Virus record (IMG/VR): IMGVR_UViG_3300021594_000960
Coordinates: 9,156 to 73,155 of that record
From: a virus
DNA: 64,000 nucleotides
Strand: one strand, 5' to 3'
A program made the translations under genes and the position numbers. The notes beneath the pieces are model-generated. The model did no database searches. It was given only the letters and a program-made list of their open reading frames with translations, and had not been told where the DNA came from. The number at the start of each line of letters is the position of its first letter. Positions within the stretch are counted from its first letter, which is position 1. Of this stretch, positions 27,668 through 44,806 are shown in pieces.

Positions 27668-27734
27668 GAAATAAATATCATAAATTTTTTTCTTAAATCA
27701 AACTTTTTTGTAACTTTGTTGAAACAAAAAAATT

Positions 27735-28007
27735 ATGCCAAACATAGATTTAGATATAGAAGTATATGAGTTTGTCCGAGCTTGCTCTAAAAGAGACATC
27801 AAAGAATTGATTAAAGAGTTGGTAGATGAGGGACATCTTCCCAAAGACTTGTATTTTAAAAATGGTGAATTAAAAAAAGAAATGAATAGAAAACTCTCAA
27901 GTGAAATTGACTTTGAGGAAAAATTAGATAAACTTAAAACGAAATACTTTTCTTTGAATAAAGATGAAGAAGATTCTTTGGAAAAGATATTTAAGAAACA
28001 TTTATAA
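27735..28007 (+). CDS. Hypothetical protein
   Basis: ORF track; TAACTTTG promoter at 27711-27718. Confidence 0.7.
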   Translation: MPNIDLDIEVYEFVRACSKRDIKELIKELVDEGHLPKDLYFKNGELKKEMNRKLSSEIDFEEKLDKLKTKYFSLNKDEEDSLEKIFKKHL

Positions 28008-28029
28008 ACTGGTATATATTTATAGAAAT

Positions 28030-28125
28030 ATGAAAACTTTGAATCTAAATACGAGAACAAATGCGACAACACCGAATGGTGATGCAGGTGGATTATGCTT
28101 AGGTTCAGAGGCAAGTGGTTGGTAA
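28030..28125 (+). CDS. Leader peptide 1 (31 aa) of tRNA cluster
   Basis: MKTLNLNTRTNATTPNGDAGGLCLGSEASGW*; TATTTAT at 28017-28023; attenuator hairpins. Confidence 0.7.
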   Translation: MKTLNLNTRTNATTPNGDAGGLCLGSEASGW

Positions 28126-28147
28126 TTAAAAACAAAGCCAATAAAAA

Positions 28148-28181
28148 ACCCTGAACCTTGAAAGTTCGGGGTTTTTTTTTT
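28148..28181 (+). terminator. Attenuator terminator 5 nt before tRNA-Pro
   Basis: ACCCTGAAC-cttgaaa-GTTCGGGGT followed by T-tract. Confidence 0.85.
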
Positions 28182-28186
28182 GAATA

Positions 28187-28261
28187 TAGAGTAGTTGACC
28201 AATAGGTAGGTCCCTTGCTTTGGGAGCAAGTGTGTGCAGGTTCGACCCCTGTCTACTCTAC
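28187..28261 (+). tRNA. tRNA-Pro(TGG)
   Basis: TAGAGTA/TACTCTA acceptor; cttgc-TTTGGGA-gcaag. Confidence 0.9.
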
Positions 28262-28273
28262 TTAATTTTAAAA

Positions 28274-28359
28274 ATGCTTCGTTGCCGTAGTGGCCGAACG
28301 GTCCAGACTGTTAATCTGGTGTGTAAAAACCATCGTAGGTTCGAATCCTACCGAAGCAG
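28274..28359 (+). tRNA. tRNA-Asn(GTT) with long variable region
   Basis: TGCTTCG/CGAAGCA acceptor; ccaga-CTGTTAA-tctgg. Confidence 0.88.
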
Positions 28360-28406
28360 CTTTTTTTGAACTCAACAATACTTATAATTAACAACATTTG
28401 TTAATC

Positions 28407-28946
28407 ATGAGTAAGTATTGCGAAAAAATTTTAGAATTGAGGAAAAATGGAATGACGTACAAAGAAATTTCCAATGAATTGAATTGTGCGTTATCCACAG
28501 TCTCTTATCATTGTAAACTTCATAAATTGGGGGGCTCAGATGGTAGGTTGACCGAAGAAGAAAAAATGAGACTACAGAAACTTTATGACCAATTTGGTTC
28601 AATAAAAAAAGTATCTGAAATCACCAAAAATTCTTCGGAAACAATTCTCAAGTATGTGAAAACAAAAAGGAAGAATAAAAAATTAACCGGTTCTGAATCT
28701 GTAATTTTATGGAGAAAAAGAACAAAATTGAAATTGATAGAGTACAAGGGAGGAAAATGTGAGATTTGTGGTTATGATAGATGTGTGAGAGCTTTACAGT
28801 TTCATCATAAAAATCCTGAAACAAAAGATTTTTCTATTTCAGGAAAAAGTCATAGTTTTGTTAAACTGAAATCGGAAGTTGATAAATGTATATTAGTTTG
28901 CTCAAATTGCCATTCAGAAATACATGACGGAATGATTGAAATTTAG
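28407..28946 (+). CDS. HTH + HNH free-standing (homing-type) endonuclease
   Basis: N-terminal HTH; KGGKCEICGY..LQFHH..KCILVCSNCHSEIH; inserted between tRNAs. Confidence 0.85.
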   Translation: MSKYCEKILELRKNGMTYKEISNELNCALSTVSYHCKLHKLGGSDGRLTEEEKMRLQKLYDQFGSIKKVSEITKNSSETILKYVKTKRKNKKLTGSESVILWRKRTKLKLIEYKGGKCEICGYDRCVRALQFHHKNPETKDFSISGKSHSFVKLKSEVDKCILVCSNCHSEIHDGMIEI

Positions 28947-29016
28947 GTCTTATAGTTAATCGGTATAATATCGGCTTGTCGCGCCGAGGTGCGGGGTTCG
29001 ATTCCCCGTGGGACCG
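28946..29016 (+). tRNA. tRNA-Asp(GTC)
   Basis: tcggc-TTGTCGC-gccga; GGTTCGATTCC. Confidence 0.88.
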
Positions 29017-29069
29017 CTGATAGGGTTTGTAGGTTGTAAAACACATTATTGTGTACCCGTATTCAAATT

Positions 29070-29142
29070 GCCTCCTTAGCTCAGCAGGTAGAGCAACTGA
29101 TTTGTAATCAGTAGGTCGTTGGTTCGATTCCGACAGGAGGCT
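29070..29142 (+). tRNA. tRNA-Thr(TGT)
   Basis: GCCTCCT/AGGAGGC; actga-TTTGTAA-tcagt. Confidence 0.95.
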
Positions 29143-29157
29143 CTAAAATTTTAATTT

Positions 29158-29391
29158 ATGCAAGTTTTTTGGACTTATTATTTGATTTGTTTTGCCTATT
29201 GTCTTTTCATGTCTGTTAGAAGATGGAATAGAGATGCAATGGCTGGTGGTCTTGGTATCTCACCTGGTTTGGATACTTTGGGACTTTTAATTATGTGTTG
29301 GATTTTAGCTCCTGTGGATATATTTCTCACATGGGTAAGAGTGTATAAAGAAGCTGAAGAAGCAAGACGAAATAATACAAAAGTATTCTAA
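29158..29391 (+). CDS. Small membrane protein
   Basis: Two hydrophobic segments. Confidence 0.7.
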   Translation: MQVFWTYYLICFAYCLFMSVRRWNRDAMAGGLGISPGLDTLGLLIMCWILAPVDIFLTWVRVYKEAEEARRNNTKVF

Positions 29392-29993
29392 TGACGTACT
29401 CGGACGAATTGAAAGTTTGTTGGTATACACCACAAAGAACCGCCACAAGGACAACACATGTTCTACTCAATGCCATGGGTTTTGTGGGTTTAGGAGCGCA
29501 CTTTTTTAATTTTCCAGAATCAAAAAAAGATTATTTTTTAATTTCTAATATTAGAAATCCGTACACGAGAGTTGTTTCTTTGTTTTCTTTGTATTCGATT
29601 CATAAAAATGATTTCAATTTGAATTTTGAAAAATGGTGTGAATATGCCCTAACAGATAAAAAGTTTGACGGTGATTATCAACTTAGGTATGAGAAAAAAA
29701 TATTAAGTTTGAATAAAAAATTCGATAAGTTTATAAGAGTAGAAAAATTGGACGAAGATTTAAAATCTTTAGGTTTTATCAATTTTGAGGAACCAAAAAT
29801 TCAAGATATTTGGAAAAATAACATCATGAATAATAGGTACACATATGAATTCAAAAATATTGAAAATACCACAAGGACACATTGGTCTGATTTCTACACA
29901 GAAAAACTAGCTGACTTCGTTTACGAAAACTTAAAGGAACAATTTGATTTATTTGGTTACGAAAGAAACTCTTGGAAAAATGGCACATCCTAA
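29391..29993 (+). CDS. Sulfotransferase family 2-like protein
   Basis: PQRTATRT, IRNPYTRVVS, IRVEKLDED, FDLFGY. Confidence 0.8.
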   Translation: MTYSDELKVCWYTPQRTATRTTHVLLNAMGFVGLGAHFFNFPESKKDYFLISNIRNPYTRVVSLFSLYSIHKNDFNLNFEKWCEYALTDKKFDGDYQLRYEKKILSLNKKFDKFIRVEKLDEDLKSLGFINFEEPKIQDIWKNNIMNNRYTYEFKNIENTTRTHWSDFYTEKLADFVYENLKEQFDLFGYERNSWKNGTS

Positions 29994-30333
29994 TTTACAT
30001 GCAAAAAGTTCGGCAAAGAAGTTTGGAGGTAAACCCGAAGATTATATTCATCTACATGAATGGTTAGATGAAACCAAAGGTTGGTTTGGTGATTCTTTAC
30101 ATCGTATGTTTAGACACCATTCAGAAGGTATTTTCGAAATGGAAAAAAGGTTTGGAAAAGAGTTCAAAAACAGCGATGGTAAAACGGTTTATACTAGGTA
30201 TGTTGGAGAACAACATGTGAAGGAGGATTGTAATAATTATATCCCATCAGCCAAAGAATGGGTAAATAATATAACAAGTAACACACGACCAAGTTGGATG
30301 ATTAAAACAATAAAATTAGAGTTTGAAGACTGA
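29980..30333 (+). CDS. DUF6915-like protein
   Basis: MAHPNLHAKSSAKKFGGKPEDY..HRMFRHH..GEQHVKED. Confidence 0.8.
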   Translation: MAHPNLHAKSSAKKFGGKPEDYIHLHEWLDETKGWFGDSLHRMFRHHSEGIFEMEKRFGKEFKNSDGKTVYTRYVGEQHVKEDCNNYIPSAKEWVNNITSNTRPSWMIKTIKLEFED

Positions 30334-30346
30334 TATTTATAACATT

Positions 30347-31057
30347 ATGAGCAAAATACTAACATCAGAAGAAAAAAAATACTTACAGAGAATTTGTAGA
30401 TACTTGGGTTCATTAGGAATGAACCATGGTAGTATTGATTTCGAAATGGAATATGGTGAATTTGATACTAATGACTATAATTGGAACCGTATTACTCATT
30501 TCTCTAACAATTATACTGCGGAAATTCCTGACGGATTAAAAGAAATCTGTAAAAAACTGCTCAAGTATGTTGAAGAAAACGATTTAATTAATAATCCAGA
30601 TGTCGAAAATTTAAACTGGGAACGAATTGAAATCGATGTTGATTGTGACGAGTCAACAATCTCTGTTGTTCATGATTATAATTACTTCGAAGCTAGTGAT
30701 ACTGAGTCAGTCACAAGAAGTTTGGAAGAAGATGGTGACGATGAAAGCTTAATGGAAGTGTTTGATGTTTTGGAAAATGATGATGAAATTGATGAAAGAG
30801 TTCTAAGAATTGATTATAACGGTAGTGGTGATAGCGGATACTTAGAAGACGCCTTTGATAATATAGGGGTCGATGTGCCAGCACAAGTTCAAGATTACTG
30901 TTATGGTATTTTAGAAAGTAATTTTGGTGGTTGGGAAATTAACGAAGGCTCACAAGGATATTTTGAAATTGATTTAGATAGAAAAGAAATTACTCTCTAT
31001 CACACATCCAATCTTGATGAAACAGGAAGAGATACTGTTTTTGAAGAAGACTTCTAA
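30347..31057 (+). CDS. DUF6878-like protein
   Basis: YNGSGDSG...GWEINEGSQG. Confidence 0.75.
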   Translation: MSKILTSEEKKYLQRICRYLGSLGMNHGSIDFEMEYGEFDTNDYNWNRITHFSNNYTAEIPDGLKEICKKLLKYVEENDLINNPDVENLNWERIEIDVDCDESTISVVHDYNYFEASDTESVTRSLEEDGDDESLMEVFDVLENDDEIDERVLRIDYNGSGDSGYLEDAFDNIGVDVPAQVQDYCYGILESNFGGWEINEGSQGYFEIDLDRKEITLYHTSNLDETGRDTVFEEDF

Positions 31058-31099
31058 ATTATTTGTTTTTTTAATCCAAATCCCTTATTTTTGTATTAT

Positions 31100-31186
31100 A
31101 CCTTGGTGGCGAAATCGGTATACGCGCAAGACTTAAAATCTTGTGGACAGAAAATGTCCGTGTGGGTTCAAGTCCCACCTGAGGTA
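31100..31186 (+). tRNA. tRNA-Leu(TAA)
   Basis: caaga-CTTAAAA-tcttg; variable arm; TATTTTTG promoter at 31086-31093. Confidence 0.9.
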
Positions 31187-31262
31187 GGCGTAACGGTAGC
31201 CGCGTTGGTCTTAGGAACCAATGACTTCGGTCGTGAGAGTTCGAGTCTCTCTTGGGGTACCA
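31187..31262 (+). tRNA. tRNA-Leu(TAG), 5' acceptor strand missing
   Basis: ttggt-CTTAGGA-accaa; ends in ACCA; D-arm begins right after the previous tRNA. Confidence 0.8.
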
Positions 31263-31271
31263 ATAGAACAT

Positions 31272-31985
31272 ATGTATATTCAAAGTCCATTAGTCCCAAC
31301 GGGTGTTAATAACATTTATCATTTAGCACCAATCCCTGTATTCATGAAAGTCTTTAATGACCATGAATTACATGATGAAGTTTTTCAATTAGGTTTAGAT
31401 GTCCTGAGTCCCGCTCAGAAAAAAATGGGTCAAGAACTACCTGAGGTCTATGATGCTCAGAGACAAGAAAAATATGAAGTAAATTATAACCGTCAGGATA
31501 TGTGGGTTGAACCAACTGAGTACAACCCCATCGGTAGTCGATTTTGGACCCCGCCAAACGATTTTCTCGATAGACCTGATACTTGTGTACAAATTATAAA
31601 AGACAGGTGTAAAAACGGTTATATGGAGTTATTAGACTCCTTAAATTTTGTACACAAAAGAAACCCAAAAATAACTGAGTCTTGGATTCAATATTACAAC
31701 CCCACAGAAGGTAGAGGTCATAACCAACATAATCATTGTCGTTGGTCTCCTGATGAAGAAACTGTATTGAATTTTGTGGGTGGTTATTATCTTTCAGACG
31801 GTAACCCAATAAAAGACCATCCTTACAGTGGTGTTTTTACGTTTCACATCAGAGGTATGTCTTATTTCATTCGACCGAAAAAAGGTATGCTCATGATTTG
31901 GCCTTACGATATTGTACATTCTGTGAAACCATTTTATGGTGAAACACAGAGATGTGTTATCAATTTCAATATTCAGGACATATAA
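31272..31985 (+). CDS. Putative 2OG-Fe(II) oxygenase (TIGR02466-like)
   Basis: ESWIQYY..HNQHNH..GGYYL..PKKGMLMIWPYDIVHSV..RCVINFN. Confidence 0.85.
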   Translation: MYIQSPLVPTGVNNIYHLAPIPVFMKVFNDHELHDEVFQLGLDVLSPAQKKMGQELPEVYDAQRQEKYEVNYNRQDMWVEPTEYNPIGSRFWTPPNDFLDRPDTCVQIIKDRCKNGYMELLDSLNFVHKRNPKITESWIQYYNPTEGRGHNQHNHCRWSPDEETVLNFVGGYYLSDGNPIKDHPYSGVFTFHIRGMSYFIRPKKGMLMIWPYDIVHSVKPFYGETQRCVINFNIQDI

Positions 31986-32036
31986 ATTATTTGTTTTTAA
32001 AAAACTTTTACTATATTTGTAGTAATTATAATAACA

Positions 32037-32117
32037 ATGAGAACACAGGTGCAACATATTGTCTACAGTCATCAACAAGAGATTTGTTGGATTAAGACAC
32101 GCCCTGTAGTCTCGTGA
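32037..32117 (+). CDS. Leader peptide 2 (26 aa) of tRNA cluster
   Basis: MRTQVQHIVYSHQQEICWIKTRPVVS*; TATATTTG promoter at 32012-32019; attenuator hairpins. Confidence 0.7.
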   Translation: MRTQVQHIVYSHQQEICWIKTRPVVS

Positions 32118-32150
32118 GAAGCCTATAATTCCTGAAGAGTTATATATAAG

Positions 32151-32191
32151 ACCTCGAACTACAGAAATGAAGTTCGGGGTTTTTTCTTTTT
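32151..32191 (+). terminator. Attenuator terminator
   Basis: ACCTCGAACT-acagaaatga-AGTTCGGGGT followed by T-tract. Confidence 0.85.
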
Positions 32192-32201
32192 GGGACTTTT
32201 G

Positions 32202-32217
32202 GTTCTTTGAAGTATTG
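32202..32217 (+). promoter_or_regulatory. boxA-like antitermination element
   Basis: GTTCTTTGAAGTATTG resembles rrn boxA (TGYTCTTTRA). Confidence 0.55.
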
Positions 32218-32321
32218 CTGAACATGTTTTGAGTCAATATGGTTTATTGATTTCTAAGGGAGGGTATGAAAGAGAAGTGAATTGGGATAGGTTAGAAGAA
32301 TTAAAAAAAGAAATTAAATAA
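32214..32321 (+). pseudogene. C-terminal gene fragment without a start
   Basis: IAEHVLSQYGLLISKGGYEREVNWDRLEELKKEIK* fused directly to the boxA-like element. Confidence 0.5.
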
Positions 32322-32335
32322 AGTAAGATTATTAG

Positions 32336-32410
32336 GGTCAGTTGGTCGAGTGGTTTAGGCGGTAGTCTGCAAAACTATTTACACAGGTTCGATTCCTGTA
32401 CTGACCTCCA
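32336..32410 (+). tRNA. tRNA-Cys(GCA)
   Basis: gtagt-CTGCAAA-actat; U73 then CCA. Confidence 0.93.
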
Positions 32411-32413
32411 CAA

Positions 32414-32486
32414 TGGAATGTAGCTCAGCTGGTAGAGCACTATTCTGATACGATAGTTGTCGGCGGTTCGAGCCCGCCCATTCCAA
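32414..32486 (+). tRNA. tRNA-Ile(GAT)
   Basis: TGGAATG/CATTCCA; ctatt-CTGATAC-gatag. Confidence 0.9.
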
Positions 32487-32500
32487 CAAAATAAAATGTT

Positions 32501-33025
32501 ATGAGACGTAAAATCATTTTTATCGATGTAGATGGACCACTGGCATGGGGAACATGGGGTGACGGTAGAGTTACGCTCAACGAAGCTTCTAAGACCTTCA
32601 CAATCCCTTATCCATGGGTTCAGGAGGACTGCCAAGCATTACAAAAAATTTGTAACGAAACAAATGCGTCTTTGGTTGTAAGTTCAGATTGGAGAAAACA
32701 CTTTAGTATAATTCAACTCAAAAGAATTTTTCAATACTATGGTGTAACCGCACCGATTGTAGACATTACAACTCATCAGTACCTTTGGAACAAAATGAGT
32801 AGACCATCTATAGAATGGGAGAGAGCCGCAGAAATCACAAAGTGGGTTAAGGACAACAAAATCACCAATTGGATTTCAATTGATGATATGAAACTTGATG
32901 AACAATACAAGTGGTTGAAACCAAGAATTCCAATGTGGAGACACGTACAGGTAGATGGTGATTGGGGTCACGGCGGAAGACTAAGAGACAAAATTGATGA
33001 ATGTATAAAAAAATTAGAACGATGA
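32501..33025 (+). CDS. HAD domain protein (Swiss Army Knife RNA repair type)
   Basis: IFIDVDG, VVSSDWR, ERAAEI, ISIDD. Confidence 0.85.
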   Translation: MRRKIIFIDVDGPLAWGTWGDGRVTLNEASKTFTIPYPWVQEDCQALQKICNETNASLVVSSDWRKHFSIIQLKRIFQYYGVTAPIVDITTHQYLWNKMSRPSIEWERAAEITKWVKDNKITNWISIDDMKLDEQYKWLKPRIPMWRHVQVDGDWGHGGRLRDKIDECIKKLER

Positions 33026-33309
33026 AAAAAAGATTATCATTAGAACAGAAGAGAGAAAAAATGGTCGTTGATATGATTAATAAAATGTTCGAAATCGCAG
33101 GACATTCAGTAACATACGATGATGTTAAAGACCGTAAAGATGATTGGTATACTCAATGGACTATGACTGTCGAACAAAACGATGAGTGGAAAGATTGGGG
33201 TCAGAAATACCTCATCAAAGAACTCAAAATGAATAAGAAGTATGCTGAAACTCAAATGGGGATGATTTCCTTAATGTGGGGATTAAAGTTTAGTAATTTC
33301 AATTTATAA
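33022..33309 (+). CDS. Hypothetical protein
   Basis: ATGA overlap. Confidence 0.7.
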   Translation: MKKRLSLEQKREKMVVDMINKMFEIAGHSVTYDDVKDRKDDWYTQWTMTVEQNDEWKDWGQKYLIKELKMNKKYAETQMGMISLMWGLKFSNFNL

Positions 33310-33325
33310 AGCGTAAATTTGTGAT

Positions 33326-33880
33326 ATGAAAATCAATAGAGCGGATTTGTTATGGTTCCTGAGTAACATCCGAAGAAAACAAGAAGGAAAAGAACTTACT
33401 GACGAAATGCTAGTTGACCATATGGCACATTATATGGAGGCAAATCCGAGATGTGTTGATATGCAAGGTGTTAGTACACCAGGTAGGTTCAGTTATTCTA
33501 CTGTTGGATATGGTGTATTCAGTTTGATGGGTGAGAAGTATAGAATGGGTAGGATTGAAATATTCGACAGAGAAAGTGATAGCGGATATCAAGTGTCTGA
33601 GGGAATCTATACAATGCCTTATGAAGCGGCAAGTCAATTTGAAGATTTTATCGAATCTTTGGAAACTGACCTACCAATAAACATCGAAATAGGTTCTCAT
33701 GGATGGTGTGAAGAGGAATGCGCAAAATCTTTGGGTTTTGAAAACACTGAAGCTATGAGAGACCCTGAAAACGTAAAAAAGTATCAAAGAATGAAAAACG
33801 ATGAATATGCACGTGAACAAGGGTATGAAGATTGGGACGACCTATTAGCTAAAAGTAAGTGGACAAAAAAACAAGGATAA
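33326..33880 (+). CDS. Hypothetical protein
   Basis: ORF track; TAAATTTG at 33314-33321. Confidence 0.7.
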   Translation: MKINRADLLWFLSNIRRKQEGKELTDEMLVDHMAHYMEANPRCVDMQGVSTPGRFSYSTVGYGVFSLMGEKYRMGRIEIFDRESDSGYQVSEGIYTMPYEAASQFEDFIESLETDLPINIEIGSHGWCEEECAKSLGFENTEAMRDPENVKKYQRMKNDEYAREQGYEDWDDLLAKSKWTKKQG

Positions 33881-34293
33881 TGAAAGTTGTAATCGTAAGT
33901 GGATATTTCAATCCTGTCCATAAAGGACATATTGAATACTTTATCAAATCAAAAGAACATGGAGACAAACTCTATGTGATTGTGAATAACGATTTTCAAC
34001 GTGAGTTGAAAGGAAGTAAAAAGTTCCAAGATGAGGACGAGAGATTGGTAATTATCGATAGTTTAAAGATGGTAGATAAAACTATACTATCTATCGATAA
34101 AGACAGAACGGTTCGTGAGACGTTAAGAATGATTGCCTCTGAGGTTGAAGAAAACGTAGAGTTGTTTTTTGCAAACGGAGGAGACCAAAATAACGACACA
34201 ATACCTGAAAAACCAATCTGTGATGAATTGGGTATCAAACTGGTTGACGGTTTGGGAGACAAGATTCAGTCCTCATCTTGGTTATTAAAATAA
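33880..34293 (+). CDS. Cytidylyltransferase-like (HIGH family)
   Basis: SGYFNPVHKGH, FANGGD, KIQSSS. Confidence 0.9.
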   Translation: MKVVIVSGYFNPVHKGHIEYFIKSKEHGDKLYVIVNNDFQRELKGSKKFQDEDERLVIIDSLKMVDKTILSIDKDRTVRETLRMIASEVEENVELFFANGGDQNNDTIPEKPICDELGIKLVDGLGDKIQSSSWLLK

Positions 34294-34299
34294 TAAAAA

Positions 34300-34372
34300 G
34301 CGTGCGTAGCTCAATTGGTAGAGTACTAGTCTCCAAAACTAGGAGTTTCAGGTTCGAGTCCTGACGTGCGTG
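34300..34372 (+). tRNA. tRNA-Trp(CCA)
   Basis: ctagt-CTCCAAA-actag. Confidence 0.92.
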
Positions 34373-34374
34373 CA

Positions 34375-34464
34375 AAATGTAAACTTCAGTACCCACACAG
34401 TGGTGAGACGGGCTAAGTTAGATACGATTCCTCGGAGCTGGGAGTAGAATGCTGAAGAACATTT
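34375..34464 (+). ncRNA. Unknown structured RNA A
   Basis: AAATGT..CTTCAGTA / TGCTGAAG..ACATTT closing stem; GC-rich interior. Confidence 0.5.
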
Positions 34465-34465
34465 A

Positions 34466-34601
34466 TAGGTTGATTGGGGAATGGTGAAACTAATGACTCG
34501 AGAGTGTATTTCGGTCAGTTTCATCGGAGTTGGGAGAAATACACCTGAGTAATGCCAATCGTAAAAGGAGTTGTCCACGCAACCATCTTCTCCTTTCCTT
34601 A
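34466..34601 (+). ncRNA. Unknown structured RNA B with possible pseudoknot
   Basis: GATTGG/CCAATC, GTGTATTTC/GAAATACAC, GGTGAAACT/AGTTTCATC, AAGGAG/CTCCTT. Confidence 0.6.
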
Positions 34602-34605
34602 ATTT

Positions 34606-34687
34606 GGGAGTATCGCCTAGTGGCAATGGCAGAAGACTGTAAATCTTCCCTCTTTCGAGTTCGTTGGTTCGAGTCCAGCTACTCCCA
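34606..34687 (+). tRNA. tRNA-Tyr(GTA)
   Basis: gaaga-CTGTAAA-tcttc; variable arm. Confidence 0.93.
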
Positions 34688-34690
34688 CAA

Positions 34691-34750
34691 AATGATTGAA
34701 GTCCTGAGTGGTATCGGGAGGAAGTAACACAACCAAGTGTAACAATCATT
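34691..34750 (+). ncRNA. Unknown structured RNA C (three-way junction)
   Basis: AATGATTG/CAATCATT enclosing TCCTGA/TCGGGA and ACAC/GTGT hairpins. Confidence 0.5.
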
Positions 34751-34753
34751 TAT

Positions 34754-34827
34754 GGACCCCTAGCTCAGTAGGTTAGAGCAAATGACTCATAATCATTAGG
34801 TCCACGGTTCGAGCCCGTGGGGGTCCA
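34754..34827 (+). tRNA. tRNA-CAT (probably Ile2, or elongator Met)
   Basis: aatga-CTCATAA-tcatt; paired 1:72; no initiator GGG/CCC. Confidence 0.9.
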
Positions 34828-34829
34828 CA

Positions 34830-34904
34830 AGACAGACACACGCTTCCCATGGTGTTAAAGTACAAGGATAATGAAGAGAATAATACGTCTCCTTAGGTCT
34901 GTCT
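34830..34904 (+). ncRNA. Unknown tRNA-sized RNA D
   Basis: AGACAGAC/GTCTGTCT 8-bp terminal stem, 75 nt, no T-loop. Confidence 0.45.
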
Positions 34905-34909
34905 GAAAT

Positions 34910-34980
34910 TGTCGTATGGTGTAACGGTAACACAACAGATTTTGGTTCTGTTTTTCAAGGTTCGAATCCTTGTGCGACAA
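34910..34980 (+). tRNA. tRNA-Gln(TTG)
   Basis: acaga-TTTTGGT-tctgt. Confidence 0.92.
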
Positions 34981-34985
34981 CATAT

Positions 34986-35059
34986 GGTGGACGTAGCTTA
35001 GTTGGTAGAGCACTAGCTTGTGGCGCTAGTTGTCGTGGGTTCGAATCCCACCGTTCACA
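34986..35059 (+). tRNA. tRNA-His(GTG)
   Basis: ctagc-TTGTGGC-gctag; encoded G-1, A73. Confidence 0.92.
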
Positions 35060-35064
35060 CACGA

Positions 35065-35149
35065 GGAGAGTTGCCTGAGTGGTTAAAGGAGCGGTTTACT
35101 AAACCGTGGTCGGGTAACTGACCCGCTGGTTCGAATCCAGCACTCTCCG
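35065..35149 (+). tRNA. tRNA-Ser with ACT anticodon
   Basis: GGAGAGT/ACTCTCC-G; gcggt-TTACTAA-accgt; long variable arm. Confidence 0.9.
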
Positions 35150-35189
35150 CACTTTTTTTAACCTACTAGTTGACGATTTAGAAAACTTG

Positions 35190-35240
35190 GCGGCTGTTGT
35201 TGTAGACACTACTGCTGTTAAGGTAGAAGAAGTTAAATAA
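35190..35240 (+). pseudogene. C-terminal gene fragment
   Basis: AAVVVDTTAVKVEEVK* with high-expression codons, no ATG, followed by a terminator. Confidence 0.45.
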
Positions 35241-37644: not shown

Positions 37645-37732
37645 AAAAAAAAGTGGTCAGGGACTGATGGGATGCTATACCTCGGAGTCGACTTCTTTTC
37701 ACCGCTGCAGTCAGTTACATCAGTATGACCAC
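37645..37732 (-). ncRNA. Unknown structured RNA E ending in a U-tract
   Basis: GTGGTCA-t-ACTGATG ... CATCAGT-ccc-TGACCAC-T8. Confidence 0.55.
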
Positions 37733-37738
37733 CACTCG

Positions 37739-37831
37739 TTAAAATGTAACATTATCGCCAGGTTCCCATTCTTCTTCTTCCTTGGGAATATTTGGGTCAA
37801 GTTCTACCTCAACATTCAAAAAAAACGACAT
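37739..37831 (-). CDS. Small acidic ORF (30 aa), possibly a fragment
   Basis: MSFFLNVEVELDPNIPKEEEEWEPGDNVTF*. Confidence 0.4.
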   Translation of the reverse strand: MSFFLNVEVELDPNIPKEEEEWEPGDNVTF

Positions 37832-37872
37832 GAATTTTAACGTTTTATTATTTTTTCAAATATAATACAATT

Positions 37873-44413: not shown

Positions 44414-44806
44414 TGGTGGAGAAGACGGGATTCGAACCCGTGTCTTGTTCGCGATAACTATAAATGACTACACGTTTATTACAACATTGTTTCTCAATGT
44501 TCCGAAATATTAGGTTTGATATTTGTGAGAACCCCACCTACAAACAACTTGGTCTCAGAATTATTTTAAACGAGCTCTGACCTGTGACCCGTAAATTGGA
44601 CTTCTGTTCCTAGGTTAATGTCCTAACCGACCCGAGTAGTTGTGTCTTAATTAAGCAACAACTGTAGCTTCTTCAGCGATTAAACCGATAGCAGCCATTT
44701 TAGCAAAAGTATTGCCGTTTGTGTTTCAAATCAGTTTTTAAGGAGTTAATTCAGCTCCTACGTGCCACTTATACCTACACACGCCAATCAATGCCATGTC
44801 TTCCCC
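44414..44806 (-). ncRNA. ssrA: tmRNA
   Basis: 5' GGGGAAGA, 3' GGTTCGAATCCCGTCTTCTCCACCA; tag GNTFAKMAAIGLIAEEATVVA* at 44716-44651; TATATTTG promoter at 44827-44834. Confidence 0.92.

What the first reader, a model, noticed from the sequence alone, without database searches (positions are those of the whole stretch)
28017..35149. Phage tRNA clusters under codon-matched leader-peptide attenuation
Seen: two plus-strand tRNA clusters each open with promoter, short ORF and strong intrinsic terminator. The terminators share the 3' arm AAGTTCGGGGTTTTT. Leader 1 spends 15 of 31 codons on Pro, Asn, Asp, Thr and Leu, the tRNAs at 28187-31262, and has no Gln, His, Ile or Tyr. Leader 2 contains Cys, Ile, Trp, Tyr, Met, Gln, His and Ser(AGT) (14 of 26 codons), matching all eight tRNAs at 32336-35149, and has no Asn, Asp or Leu. 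Established: trp/his-type attenuators sense charged tRNA through ribosome stalling. Inference: the phage monitors supply of a tRNA set (starvation or host anticodon nucleases) and transcribes its own copies on demand. I know of no description of this for phage tRNA arrays. Caveat: internal TAnnTTTG promoters (31086, 33314) may drive parts of the clusters independently.
Basis: partly seen in the sequence, partly recalled or inferred. Interest (0 to 1): 0.93.

Follow-up and report, generated by a model that had tools for sequence, protein, structure and literature searches.

The report
Leader-peptide switches gating phage tRNA genes
This uncultured lake phage puts a tiny translated test gene and a switchable transcription stop in front of each block of its tRNA genes, written in the codons those tRNAs read, so it probably makes more tRNA when ribosomes read those codons slowly, a control I found in no paper on tRNA genes.

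Summary
Two plus-strand tRNA blocks (28188-31262, 32336-35150) each follow a short ORF (28030-28125, 32037-32117) and a strong intrinsic terminator. Both ORFs, the terminators and an alternative anti-terminator helix are kept in dozens of related uncultured phages. In every phage tested with two or more modules, leader codons match the tRNAs of the leader's own block far better than shuffled tRNA partitions allow (window 29 of 55 against 17.9; a relative with three modules 57 of 84 against 29.1, 0 of 100000 shuffles). The match is specific to the reading frame, is concentrated between helix segments 1 and 2, and extends to the choice of arginine codon by isoacceptor. A third leader, rich in Leu and Arg codons, precedes a Leu-Arg-Leu block in relatives. 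The cultured Cellulophaga phage phi4:1 has two unrelated-looking modules of the same design (33 of 47 against 18.2, 0 of 100000). Best reading: leader-peptide attenuation that senses tRNA supply. Nothing is experimental. Most modules with a long spacer also carry a promoter box behind the terminator. The window's own blocks have lost tRNAs whose codons its leaders still hold. Seven literature searches found no description. This scan has reported the same device on other phage DNA before (AI notes).

The parts
28015..28022 (+). promoter-like -7 box of leader 1, one mismatch to the Bacteroidota consensus, 7 nt before the start codon
   Evidence: Read. It is not found by the exact-consensus scan. 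Near-identical boxes sit upstream of the leader-1 ORFs of relatives.
28030..28125 (+). leader 1 ORF, 31 codons plus stop
   Evidence: The ORF is kept in 22 of 22 unique leader-1-type stretches.
28037..28048 (+). segment 1 of leader 1 (5' strand of the 1:2 hairpin)
   Evidence: MFE fold. In the family only the 5-bp core is kept, and covariation does not exceed shuffles.
28099..28110 (+). segment 2 of leader 1. It pairs with segment 1, and 28101-28108 pairs with 28151-28158 (anti-terminator, 8 bp).
   Evidence: duplex -14.2 kcal/mol, null mean -7.7, 1% of random windows as good. Family counts.
28143..28181 (+). terminator 1 (segments 3 and 4 plus T tract). tRNA-Pro starts 6 nt after the T tract.
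28188..31262 (+). tRNA block 1: Pro(tgg), Asn(gtt), Asp(gtc), Thr(tgt), Leu(taa) and a doubtful Leu(tag), with protein ORFs between them
31086..31093 (+). perfect -7 promoter box with a -33 element, 5 nt before tRNA-Leu(taa). In some relatives a third leader module sits just upstream of this box; the window has none.
32012..32019 (+). -7 box of the leader 2 promoter, with a -33 element 17-23 nt upstream
   Evidence: The same arrangement occurs in 19 of 40 unique leader-2 stretches, and a -7 box in 23 of 40.
32037..32117 (+). leader 2 ORF, 26 codons plus stop, lying inside a long hairpin spanning 32037-32115
   Evidence: The 1:2 helix of the family is 84.4% paired, with two-sided changes at 5 of 9 pairs.
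32104..32114 (+). segment 2 of leader 2. It can form 10 bp with one bulge with 32155-32164 (anti-terminator).
   Evidence: duplex -12.9 kcal/mol, 3% of random windows as good. Relatives use the canonical segment 2 instead.
32152..32185 (+). terminator 2 (stem 32152-32160 with 32171-32179, then T tract)
32186..32335 (+). 150-nt spacer holding the conserved post-terminator block of relatives, with the promoter box decayed. It is left over from the loss of the first tRNAs of block 2.
32336..35150 (+). tRNA block 2: Cys, Ile, Trp, Tyr, Met, Gln, His, Ser(act), with protein ORFs between them

Best explanation
Each module is a leader-peptide transcription attenuator whose regulated genes are tRNA genes. 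A promoter starts a short mRNA. Its ORF of 22 to 36 codons is written mainly in codons read by the tRNAs of the block behind it. The ORF lies inside a hairpin (segments 1 and 2). Segment 2 copies the 3' arm of the downstream terminator, so it can pair with the terminator's 5' arm (segment 3). If ribosomes run through the ORF, or none loads, hairpin 1:2 re-forms, the terminator 3:4 forms, and transcription stops before the tRNAs. If a ribosome stalls on a codon between segments 1 and 2 because its tRNA is scarce, segment 2 is free, pairs with segment 3, and RNA polymerase reads on into the tRNA genes. The result would be a negative feedback on the supply of each tRNA set. Shown here: the parts, their conservation, and the frame-specific, block-specific and isoacceptor-specific codon match. 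Inferred: translation of the ORF, the direction of the switch, and the trigger (codon-usage mismatch with the host, starvation, or host tRNA-cutting defences).
For: 1. ORF conservation. There are 64 unique ORF sequences of 22-43 codons. An ORF spans segment 2 in 22 of 22 leader-1-type and 36 of 40 leader-2-type unique stretches; of the other 4, two end just before segment 2 and two are cut by the locus end.
2. Own-block codon match against 100000 shuffles of the tRNAs among the blocks of the same phage. L019: 57 of 84 against 29.1 +- 4.8 (0 shuffles). L074: 53 of 83 (0). L060: 42 of 83 (1). L002: 42 of 60 (17). L106, which has a differently split block: 37 of 59 (68). L045: 29 of 54 (120). Window: 29 of 55 (153). 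L091: 201 shuffles. L039: 568 shuffles.
3. A third leader, with 8 Leu and 4 Arg(AGA) codons of 22, lies 40 nt before a Leu(taa)-Arg(tct)-Leu(tag) block in 6 loci.
4. Frame control over codons 5-20. The ORF frame matches 565 of 672 codons, the other frames 249 and 209 of 672. With 11 automatically clustered representatives the figures are 147, 82 and 65 of 176.
5. Position. The match is 707 of 907 between codon 5 and segment 2, against 50 of 126 in codons 2-4 and 92 of 243 from segment 2 on.
6. Arginine codons beyond codon 4. Blocks with only Arg(tct) have AGR 20 and CGN 2. Blocks with only Arg(acg) have CGN 20 and AGR 1. Neighbouring window genes use 62 AGR and 16 CGN.
7. Segment 2 is kept as nucleotides in three reading frames and even behind the stop codon: frames 48, 11 and 1, and 10 after or over the stop.
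8. Helices. In leader 2 the 1:2 helix is 84.4% paired with 5 of 9 pairs changed on both sides. Its 2:3 helix is 98.3% paired, with the free column pair 99/174 at AU 24, GC 6, GU 2. In leader 1 the 2:3 helix is 89% paired, with free pairs at UA 8/GC 3 and AU 6/GC 2.
9. No room for a promoter: the tRNA starts 5-20 nt after the T tract in 14 of 27 unique leader-1 stretches, the window included, and about 8-10 nt after it in both modules of phi4:1.
10. Independent replicate in Cellulophaga phage phi4:1, with a different tRNA partition and different terminators: 33 of 47 against 18.2 +- 3.6, maximum 31, 0 of 100000. Its leader Arg codons again follow the block's isoacceptor. A 46-nt promoter block, 98% identical, is repeated before both leaders.
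Of leader 2's, 8 of 12 are Val, Glu, Lys, Arg(CGC) or Ser(TCG), the tRNAs that relatives have in block 2.
Against: Nothing is experimental. The RNA contigs laid on the window cannot show ends or levels.
A perfect -7 promoter box lies between terminator and first tRNA in 12 of 13 leader-1, 31 of 40 leader-2 and 8 of 8 leader-3 stretches with a spacer above 20 nt. There the tRNAs could be made without read-through.
Perfect boxes upstream of the leader ORF are found in only 3 of 27, 23 of 40 and 0 of 8 stretches.
The leader-1 1:2 helix is only 61.8% paired in the family and shows no covariation above shuffles (221 of 500).
Taken one by one, the 2:3 duplex energy beats 95% of random windows in only 21 of 71 unique stretches (median -11.0 against a null mean of -7.8; terminator median -11.9).
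My two pattern scans fixed segment 2 and segment 3, so the table of 35 G-C, 32 A-T, 3 G-T and 0 A-C is partly circular. Only the protein-anchored loci, the third leader and the free columns are unbiased.
Variable sites fall evenly on codon positions (61, 55, 63), so the usual coding signature is absent.
The window's leaders keep codons for tRNAs that the window lacks.
The phages compared are related, so the permutation results are not independent of each other. I count a handful of independent events: leader 1 against leader 2, the third leader, the L106 split, the clade-specific moves of Pro, Asn and Gly, and phi4:1.
Confidence: 0.72

Rival explanations
1. The leader is translated and does sense tRNA supply, but the output is not gated read-through into the tRNAs. 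The tRNAs are made from the promoter box behind the terminator. The leader unit then tunes something else, for example interference with that promoter, stability or processing of the precursor, or insulation from upstream transcription.
For: A promoter box lies in the spacer in 51 of 61 unique stretches with a spacer above 20 nt. tRNA-Leu(taa) of the window has its own complete promoter 5 nt upstream.
Against: 14 of 27 leader-1 stretches, the window among them, and both phi4:1 modules leave 5-20 nt between T tract and tRNA, with no room for a promoter. A conserved anti-terminator makes little sense if read-through has no product.
Confidence: 0.1
2. The switch works in the opposite direction. 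Smooth translation of the leader opens the 1:2 hairpin and favours read-through, so the tRNAs are made when translation works (feed-forward), and stalling terminates.
For: The geometry alone does not fix the direction. In most leaders the stop codon lies 17 nt beyond segment 2, so a terminating ribosome does not fully cover segment 2.
Against: A leader written in the block's own codons gives a useful signal only if shortage switches the block on. The matched codons lie inside the 1:2 loop (707 of 907), which is where a stalled ribosome keeps 1:2 apart. This layout is that of the classical attenuators (established knowledge, recalled).
Confidence: 0.07
3. The ORFs encode small functional peptides in their own transcription units, ended by ordinary terminators. 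Their position before tRNA blocks and their composition are coincidental.
For: The ORFs are conserved and parts of the peptides are similar across clades.
Against: Block-specific, frame-specific and isoacceptor-specific codon matches. The peptides change freely in amino acid while keeping the codon repertoire, and site variation shows no third-position excess. Segment 2 is read in different frames or lies outside the ORF. The tails of leader 1 and leader 2 are exchanged between phages.
Confidence: 0.04
4. The units are small non-coding RNAs (a 5' hairpin plus a terminator), and the ORFs are incidental.
For: Strong folds with z near -4.9. Weak sub-threshold resemblances to sRNA families in Rfam.
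Against: The frame stays open in 64 unique sequences, while the other two frames hold 38 and 92 stops within codons 5-20. The codon match is seen in the ORF frame only.
Confidence: 0.03

Closest known systems
Multivalent leader-peptide attenuators of enterobacterial amino-acid operons (thr leader for Thr and Ile; ilvGMEDA leader for Ile, Leu and Val). Recalled knowledge; Rfam RF00506 was tested.
   Same: A short ORF with several kinds of regulatory codons, an intrinsic terminator, and mutually exclusive 1:2, 2:3 and 3:4 helices, with segment 2 overlapping the 3' part of the ORF.
   Different: The regulated genes are tRNA genes of a phage, not biosynthetic enzymes. Five to thirteen amino-acid kinds are each sampled one to a few times rather than in runs. 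The signal would be tRNA supply rather than amino-acid supply. There is no membership by sequence: Thr_leader scores 33.9 bits against a gathering score of 55.
pheM leader of the pheST (phenylalanyl-tRNA synthetase) operon of E. coli (recalled, not tested)
   Same: Leader-peptide attenuation applied to a gene of the translation apparatus that serves the sensed codon.
   Different: It regulates a synthetase, for a single amino acid, in a cellular genome.
T-box riboswitches (recalled; no match at Rfam gathering scores)
   Same: A terminator/anti-terminator switch that reads the state of a specific tRNA and controls translation-related genes.
   Different: A T-box binds uncharged tRNA directly and needs no ribosome or ORF. 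Here a translated ORF is the sensor, and many tRNAs are read by one element.
tRNA genes pheV and pheU of E. coli K-12, which I recalled as having an attenuator-like leader
   Same: None was found.
   Different: The 200 nt or so upstream of both genes in NC_000913.3 hold a promoter. Upstream of pheV there is no short Phe-rich ORF with terminator; the pheU upstream was read by eye only, no ORFs were listed. I rejected the recalled lead.

Membership tests
Leader-peptide transcription attenuator (trp/his/thr/ilv type) | Short ORF directly upstream of the regulated genes, conserved as an open frame | tested here: met
   28030-28125 and 32037-32117. 64 unique ORF sequences in relatives.
Leader-peptide transcription attenuator (trp/his/thr/ilv type) | Leader enriched in the codons whose supply is sensed | tested here: met
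   Permutations (window 29 of 55 against 17.9; L019 57 of 84 against 29.1), frame control, Arg isoacceptor test, phi4:1.
Leader-peptide transcription attenuator (trp/his/thr/ilv type) | Intrinsic terminator between the leader ORF and the regulated genes | tested here: met
   The consensus terminator is 96% paired in 33 and in 24 sequences.
Leader-peptide transcription attenuator (trp/his/thr/ilv type) | Anti-terminator (2:3) that excludes the terminator | tested here: met
   8 bp (leader 1) and 10 bp with a bulge (leader 2) in the window. 98.3% and 89% paired in the families, with two-sided changes at free columns. The energy is significant on its own in only 21 of 71 stretches, and the core columns were fixed by my search patterns.
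Leader-peptide transcription attenuator (trp/his/thr/ilv type) | Anti-anti-terminator (1:2) overlapping the translated region | tested here: inconclusive
   Leader 2 family: 84.4% paired, with 5 of 9 pairs changed on both sides. Leader 1 family: 61.8% paired, no covariation above shuffles, only a 5-bp core kept. The window's own leader 1 has 12 bp.
Leader-peptide transcription attenuator (trp/his/thr/ilv type) | Read-through rises when ribosomes stall in the leader | not testable with these tools
   Needs reporter fusions, Term-seq or coupled in vitro transcription-translation.
Leader-peptide transcription attenuator (trp/his/thr/ilv type) | Regulated genes are amino-acid biosynthesis or aminoacylation genes | tested here: not met
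   tRNA genes come first downstream, 6 nt after the T tract for leader 1. This is the point of novelty.
Rfam Thr_leader (RF00506) | Score at or above the gathering threshold of 55 bits | tested here: not met
   33.9 bits over the whole model at 28022-28180. The alignment rests mostly on the terminator.
T-box riboswitch | Match to the Rfam T-box model (specifier loop, T-box sequence) | tested here: not met
   No such match among the 15 gathering-level matches of the window, nor among matches up to E 10 in 27900-32400.

The most novel reading that the evidence does not exclude
Phages of Bacteroidota run a modular tRNA homeostat. Each block of tRNA genes is gated by a leader peptide that serves as an inventory of that block. 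The inventory is rewritten when tRNA genes move between blocks, and modules are duplicated, split and recombined. This lets the phage switch on exactly the tRNA set that is short, whether from a codon-usage mismatch or from host anticodon nucleases. It would be the first case of ribosome-mediated attenuation controlling tRNA genes, and it can be tested in the cultured Cellulophaga phages phi4:1 and phi17:2.
Probability: 0.55. Interest if true: 0.92.

Novelty: new variant of a known kind. Interest (0 to 1): 0.88.

Why it matters
How phages regulate their own tRNA genes is largely unknown. Current debate on why phages carry tRNAs (codon compensation against escape from tRNA-targeting defences; PMC10264068 and PMC11555353, of which I saw only the search listing and the start of the abstract) treats them as constitutively expressed cargo. 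A ribosome-read sensor in front of each tRNA block would mean the phage measures decoding speed codon by codon and answers with the matching tRNAs. That is a feedback loop on the translation apparatus built from a classical bacterial device. It would also extend leader-peptide attenuation to non-coding target genes and to leaders that sample up to thirteen amino acids. It gives a sequence rule (leader codons equal the downstream anticodon set) that can be used to annotate tRNA operons in viral metagenomes. Because the same design is present in a cultured phage-host pair, the question can be tested directly.

Tried and rejected
Recalled lead rejected. I remembered an attenuator-like leader before the E. 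coli tRNA-Phe genes. The upstream regions of pheV and pheU in NC_000913.3 show none (ORFs listed for pheV only; pheU read by eye).

Rfam. There is no family match for the leaders at gathering level. Sub-threshold Thr_leader, His_leader and Leu_leader matches rest mainly on the terminator.

RNA evidence. Four runs labelled RNA or possibly RNA were laid on 27700-35200. They are contigs of relatives, mostly 90-95% alike, and of other organisms' tRNAs. One metatranscriptome contig of X17 (1512 nt) lies on 32216-33360, and its depth also appears at insertions listed at 32119 and 32148, so it may cross terminator 2. DNA carry-over cannot be excluded and contigs show no ends. I draw no conclusion from it.

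Anti-terminator energy as a stand-alone statistic is weak: 21 of 71 stretches beat 95% of random windows.

Codon-position test for coding: flat at 61, 55 and 63. It is confounded by frame-shifted tails and overlapping RNA structure, and gives no support for selection at the peptide level.

A middle helix that I specified for leader 2 (columns 26-31 with 84-89) was mis-registered, at 13% paired. I dropped it.

RNAalifold on the 33 leader-2 sequences predicted only the terminator.

Searching IMG/VR with the protein upstream of the phi4:1 array found only phi4:1 itself, so that family has no comparative data.

Other tRNA run heads. Of 296 unique regions upstream of tRNAs that follow a gap of 250 nt or more, 76 have the family's terminator and 25 have some other hairpin with a T run. 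Most of those 25 follow ordinary protein genes. One, in L098, has a further candidate leader with a different terminator that I did not analyse.

The small ORF, structured RNA and terminator on the minus strand upstream of tRNA-Gly (37650-37860) is not of this design.

Supplementary files of papers were not consulted.

Full report
What is there. The window belongs to a 73-kb fragment of an uncultured virus estimated at 24% complete. Sequencing runs labelled freshwater or lake water hold most of the sampled words of the 7.5-kb stretch 27700-35200 (share up to 0.93). ARAGORN finds 14 plus-strand tRNA genes between 28188 and 35150, one tRNA-Gly on the minus strand and a tmRNA. Rfam confirms all but Leu(tag) at 31177-31262. 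The record holds no further tRNA outside the window. The tRNAs are interspersed with protein ORFs, among them an HNH/HTH protein, a 2OG-Fe(II) oxygenase, a HAD domain of RNA-repair proteins and a cytidylyltransferase-like protein. Each of the two blocks is headed by a short ATG ORF (28030-28125, 31 codons; 32037-32117, 26 codons) and a strong hairpin with a T tract. The terminators share their 3' arm exactly. Both leader RNAs fold far better than shuffles, with z near -4.9.

Relatives. Searching IMG/VR with the oxygenase between the blocks gave 40 loci. Of these, 23 carry the same tRNA arrays and 17 have no or one tRNA nearby. In all 11 unique versions of each leader region the ORF is intact. 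The relatives' blocks are larger. Block 1 is Pro, Asn, Gly, Asp, Thr, Ala, Leu, Arg(tct), Leu. Block 2 is Glu, Val, Phe, Lys, Cys, Trp, Tyr, Met, Gln, Arg(acg), His, Ser, Ile, Ser. The window has therefore lost tRNAs, and its leaders still carry the codons of the lost ones: 9 of 15 unmatched leader-1 codons and 8 of 12 unmatched leader-2 codons are explained by the extra tRNAs that relatives hold in the same block (hand count). Two pattern scans added 33 and 68 loci. A generic scan for the terminator type over all loci gave 83 unique stretches.

The third leader. That scan turned up a leader type I had not looked for. In 6 loci, 40 nt before a Leu(taa)-Arg(tct)-Leu(tag) sub-block, lies a 22-codon ORF with 8 Leu and 4 Arg codons. 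All the Arg codons are AGA, and the same segment 2, segment 3 and terminator follow. The window has no such unit. There a protein ORF ends 40 nt before tRNA-Leu, which has its own complete promoter.

Codon match. For each phage with two or more modules I shuffled its tRNAs among its blocks 100000 times and counted leader codons readable by the leader's own block. All nine such phages exceed the shuffles:
- L019: 57 of 84 against 29.1 +- 4.8, 0 shuffles
- L074: 0 shuffles
- L060: 1
- L002: 17
- L106: 68
- L045: 120
- the window: 153 (29 of 55 against 17.9 +- 4.2)
- L091: 201
- L039: 568
L079, with a single module, is not significant.
These phages are related, so the tests are not independent. 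The architectures do differ, however. L106 splits block 2 in two, each half with its own leader, and the two leaders divide the amino acids accordingly. Clades in which Pro, Asn or Gly tRNAs sit behind the leader-2-type element have those codons in the middle of that leader.

Three controls speak for translation as the thing that matters:
- The match is 84% in the ORF frame and 37% and 31% in the other two frames.
- It is 78% between codon 5 and segment 2, but about 40% before and after.
- Arginine codons follow the block's isoacceptor, 20 to 2 and 20 to 1, against a background of 62 AGR to 16 CGN.

RNA switch. A segment in or just behind the 3' part of every leader ORF copies the terminator's 3' arm and can pair with its 5' arm. 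In the window this gives 8 bp for leader 1 (28101-28108 with 28151-28158) and 10 bp with a bulge for leader 2 (32104-32114 with 32155-32164). The segment is kept as nucleotides although it is read in all three frames or lies behind the stop codon, so the constraint is on the RNA. On tool alignments the 2:3 helix is 98.3% (33 sequences) and 89% (24 sequences) paired, with two-sided changes at columns that my search patterns did not fix. The 1:2 helix of leader 2 shows two-sided changes at 5 of 9 pairs.

There are weak points:
- The core of 2:3 was fixed by my patterns.
- Single-sequence energies are significant in only 21 of 71 stretches.
- The 1:2 helix of leader 1 has no covariation support.

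Independent replicate. The only cultured phage that shares a near-identical tRNA with the window, Cellulophaga phage phi4:1, has a 22-tRNA array. Two of its blocks are each preceded by a 46-nt promoter block 98% identical between the two copies, a short ORF, and a terminator that ends about 8-10 nt before the first tRNA. The partition of tRNAs differs from the window's family and the terminators look unrelated. Even so, the leaders match their own blocks at 33 of 47 codons against 18.2 +- 3.6 (maximum 31, 0 of 100000 shuffles), and the Arg codon of each leader is the one read by its block's Arg tRNA. A third small annotated ORF in that array does not fit the design.

Mechanism. The layout is that of classical attenuators (recalled knowledge). 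With no ribosome, or after a ribosome has run through, 1:2 forms and leaves 3:4 to terminate. A ribosome stalled inside the 1:2 loop frees segment 2 for segment 3, and polymerase reads on. The matched codons lie exactly in that loop. I hold this direction at about 0.7.

The main complication is a perfect promoter box between terminator and first tRNA in 51 of 61 stretches with a spacer above 20 nt. There attenuation would add to a basal level rather than gate. In the window, leader 1 (6-nt spacer) must gate Pro and Asn. Behind leader 2 the box has decayed.

Known and new. Seven full-text searches found no description of leader-peptide control of tRNA genes. I read only the listings and abstract starts, plus passages of PMC3082878, which proved irrelevant. 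My recalled E. coli precedent failed its check. The device works like a multivalent thr or ilv attenuator but is not a member of any Rfam leader family, and its targets are tRNA genes. I class it as a new variant of a known kind.

This scan has already reported the same device on other phage DNA, including cultured Cellulophaga phages (AI notes). I reached phi4:1 before reading those notes, and I count them as agreement, not as evidence.

Noticed in passing
window 31099-31262: tRNA-Leu(tag) overlaps tRNA-Leu(taa) by 11 nt and matches only positions 9-63 of the tRNA model (27.9 bits). Relatives have tRNA-Arg(tct) between the two Leu genes. A deletion seems to have removed Arg(tct) and the 5' end of Leu(tag).
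   Followed up: partly
window 35065-35150: tRNA-Ser is called with anticodon ACT, where relatives have GCT at the same place in the array. Leader 2 holds one AGT codon.
   Followed up: no
window 37650-37860, minus strand: A promoter box, a 30-codon ORF, an 80-nt structured stretch with a terminator, then a PspC-like small membrane ORF and tRNA-Gly(tcc). It differs in design from the leaders and has no Rfam match at gathering level.
   Followed up: no
window 32501-33025 and 33859-34293: A HAD domain of 'Swiss Army Knife' RNA-repair proteins (PF18143, E 8.8e-20) and a cytidylyltransferase-like protein lie inside tRNA block 2. An HNH/HTH endonuclease-like ORF (28398-28946) lies between tRNA-Asn and tRNA-Asp.
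   Followed up: no
window 32202-32230 and relatives: A conserved block behind terminator 2 is kept in the window although its promoter box has decayed. Not tested.
   Followed up: no
loci L060, L019, L066, L015: The C-terminal tails of leader 1 in some phages equal the tails of leader 2 in others. The segment 2-to-terminator chassis appears to be exchanged between modules by recombination.
   Followed up: no
locus L098, upstream of an Asp-Met-Gly-Asp-Glu block: A 23-codon ORF with a different terminator. By eye 15 of 22 codons fit the block behind it, so it is possibly a further leader type.
   Followed up: no
loci L006, L007, L052, L071: Where the third leader is absent, a terminator of the same family still stands 38-40 nt before tRNA-Leu(taa), directly after the upstream protein gene. 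The leader has been lost, or was never inserted.
   Followed up: no
window 44414-44806, minus strand: A phage-encoded tmRNA (83.6 bits) with an 8-residue tag peptide.
   Followed up: no
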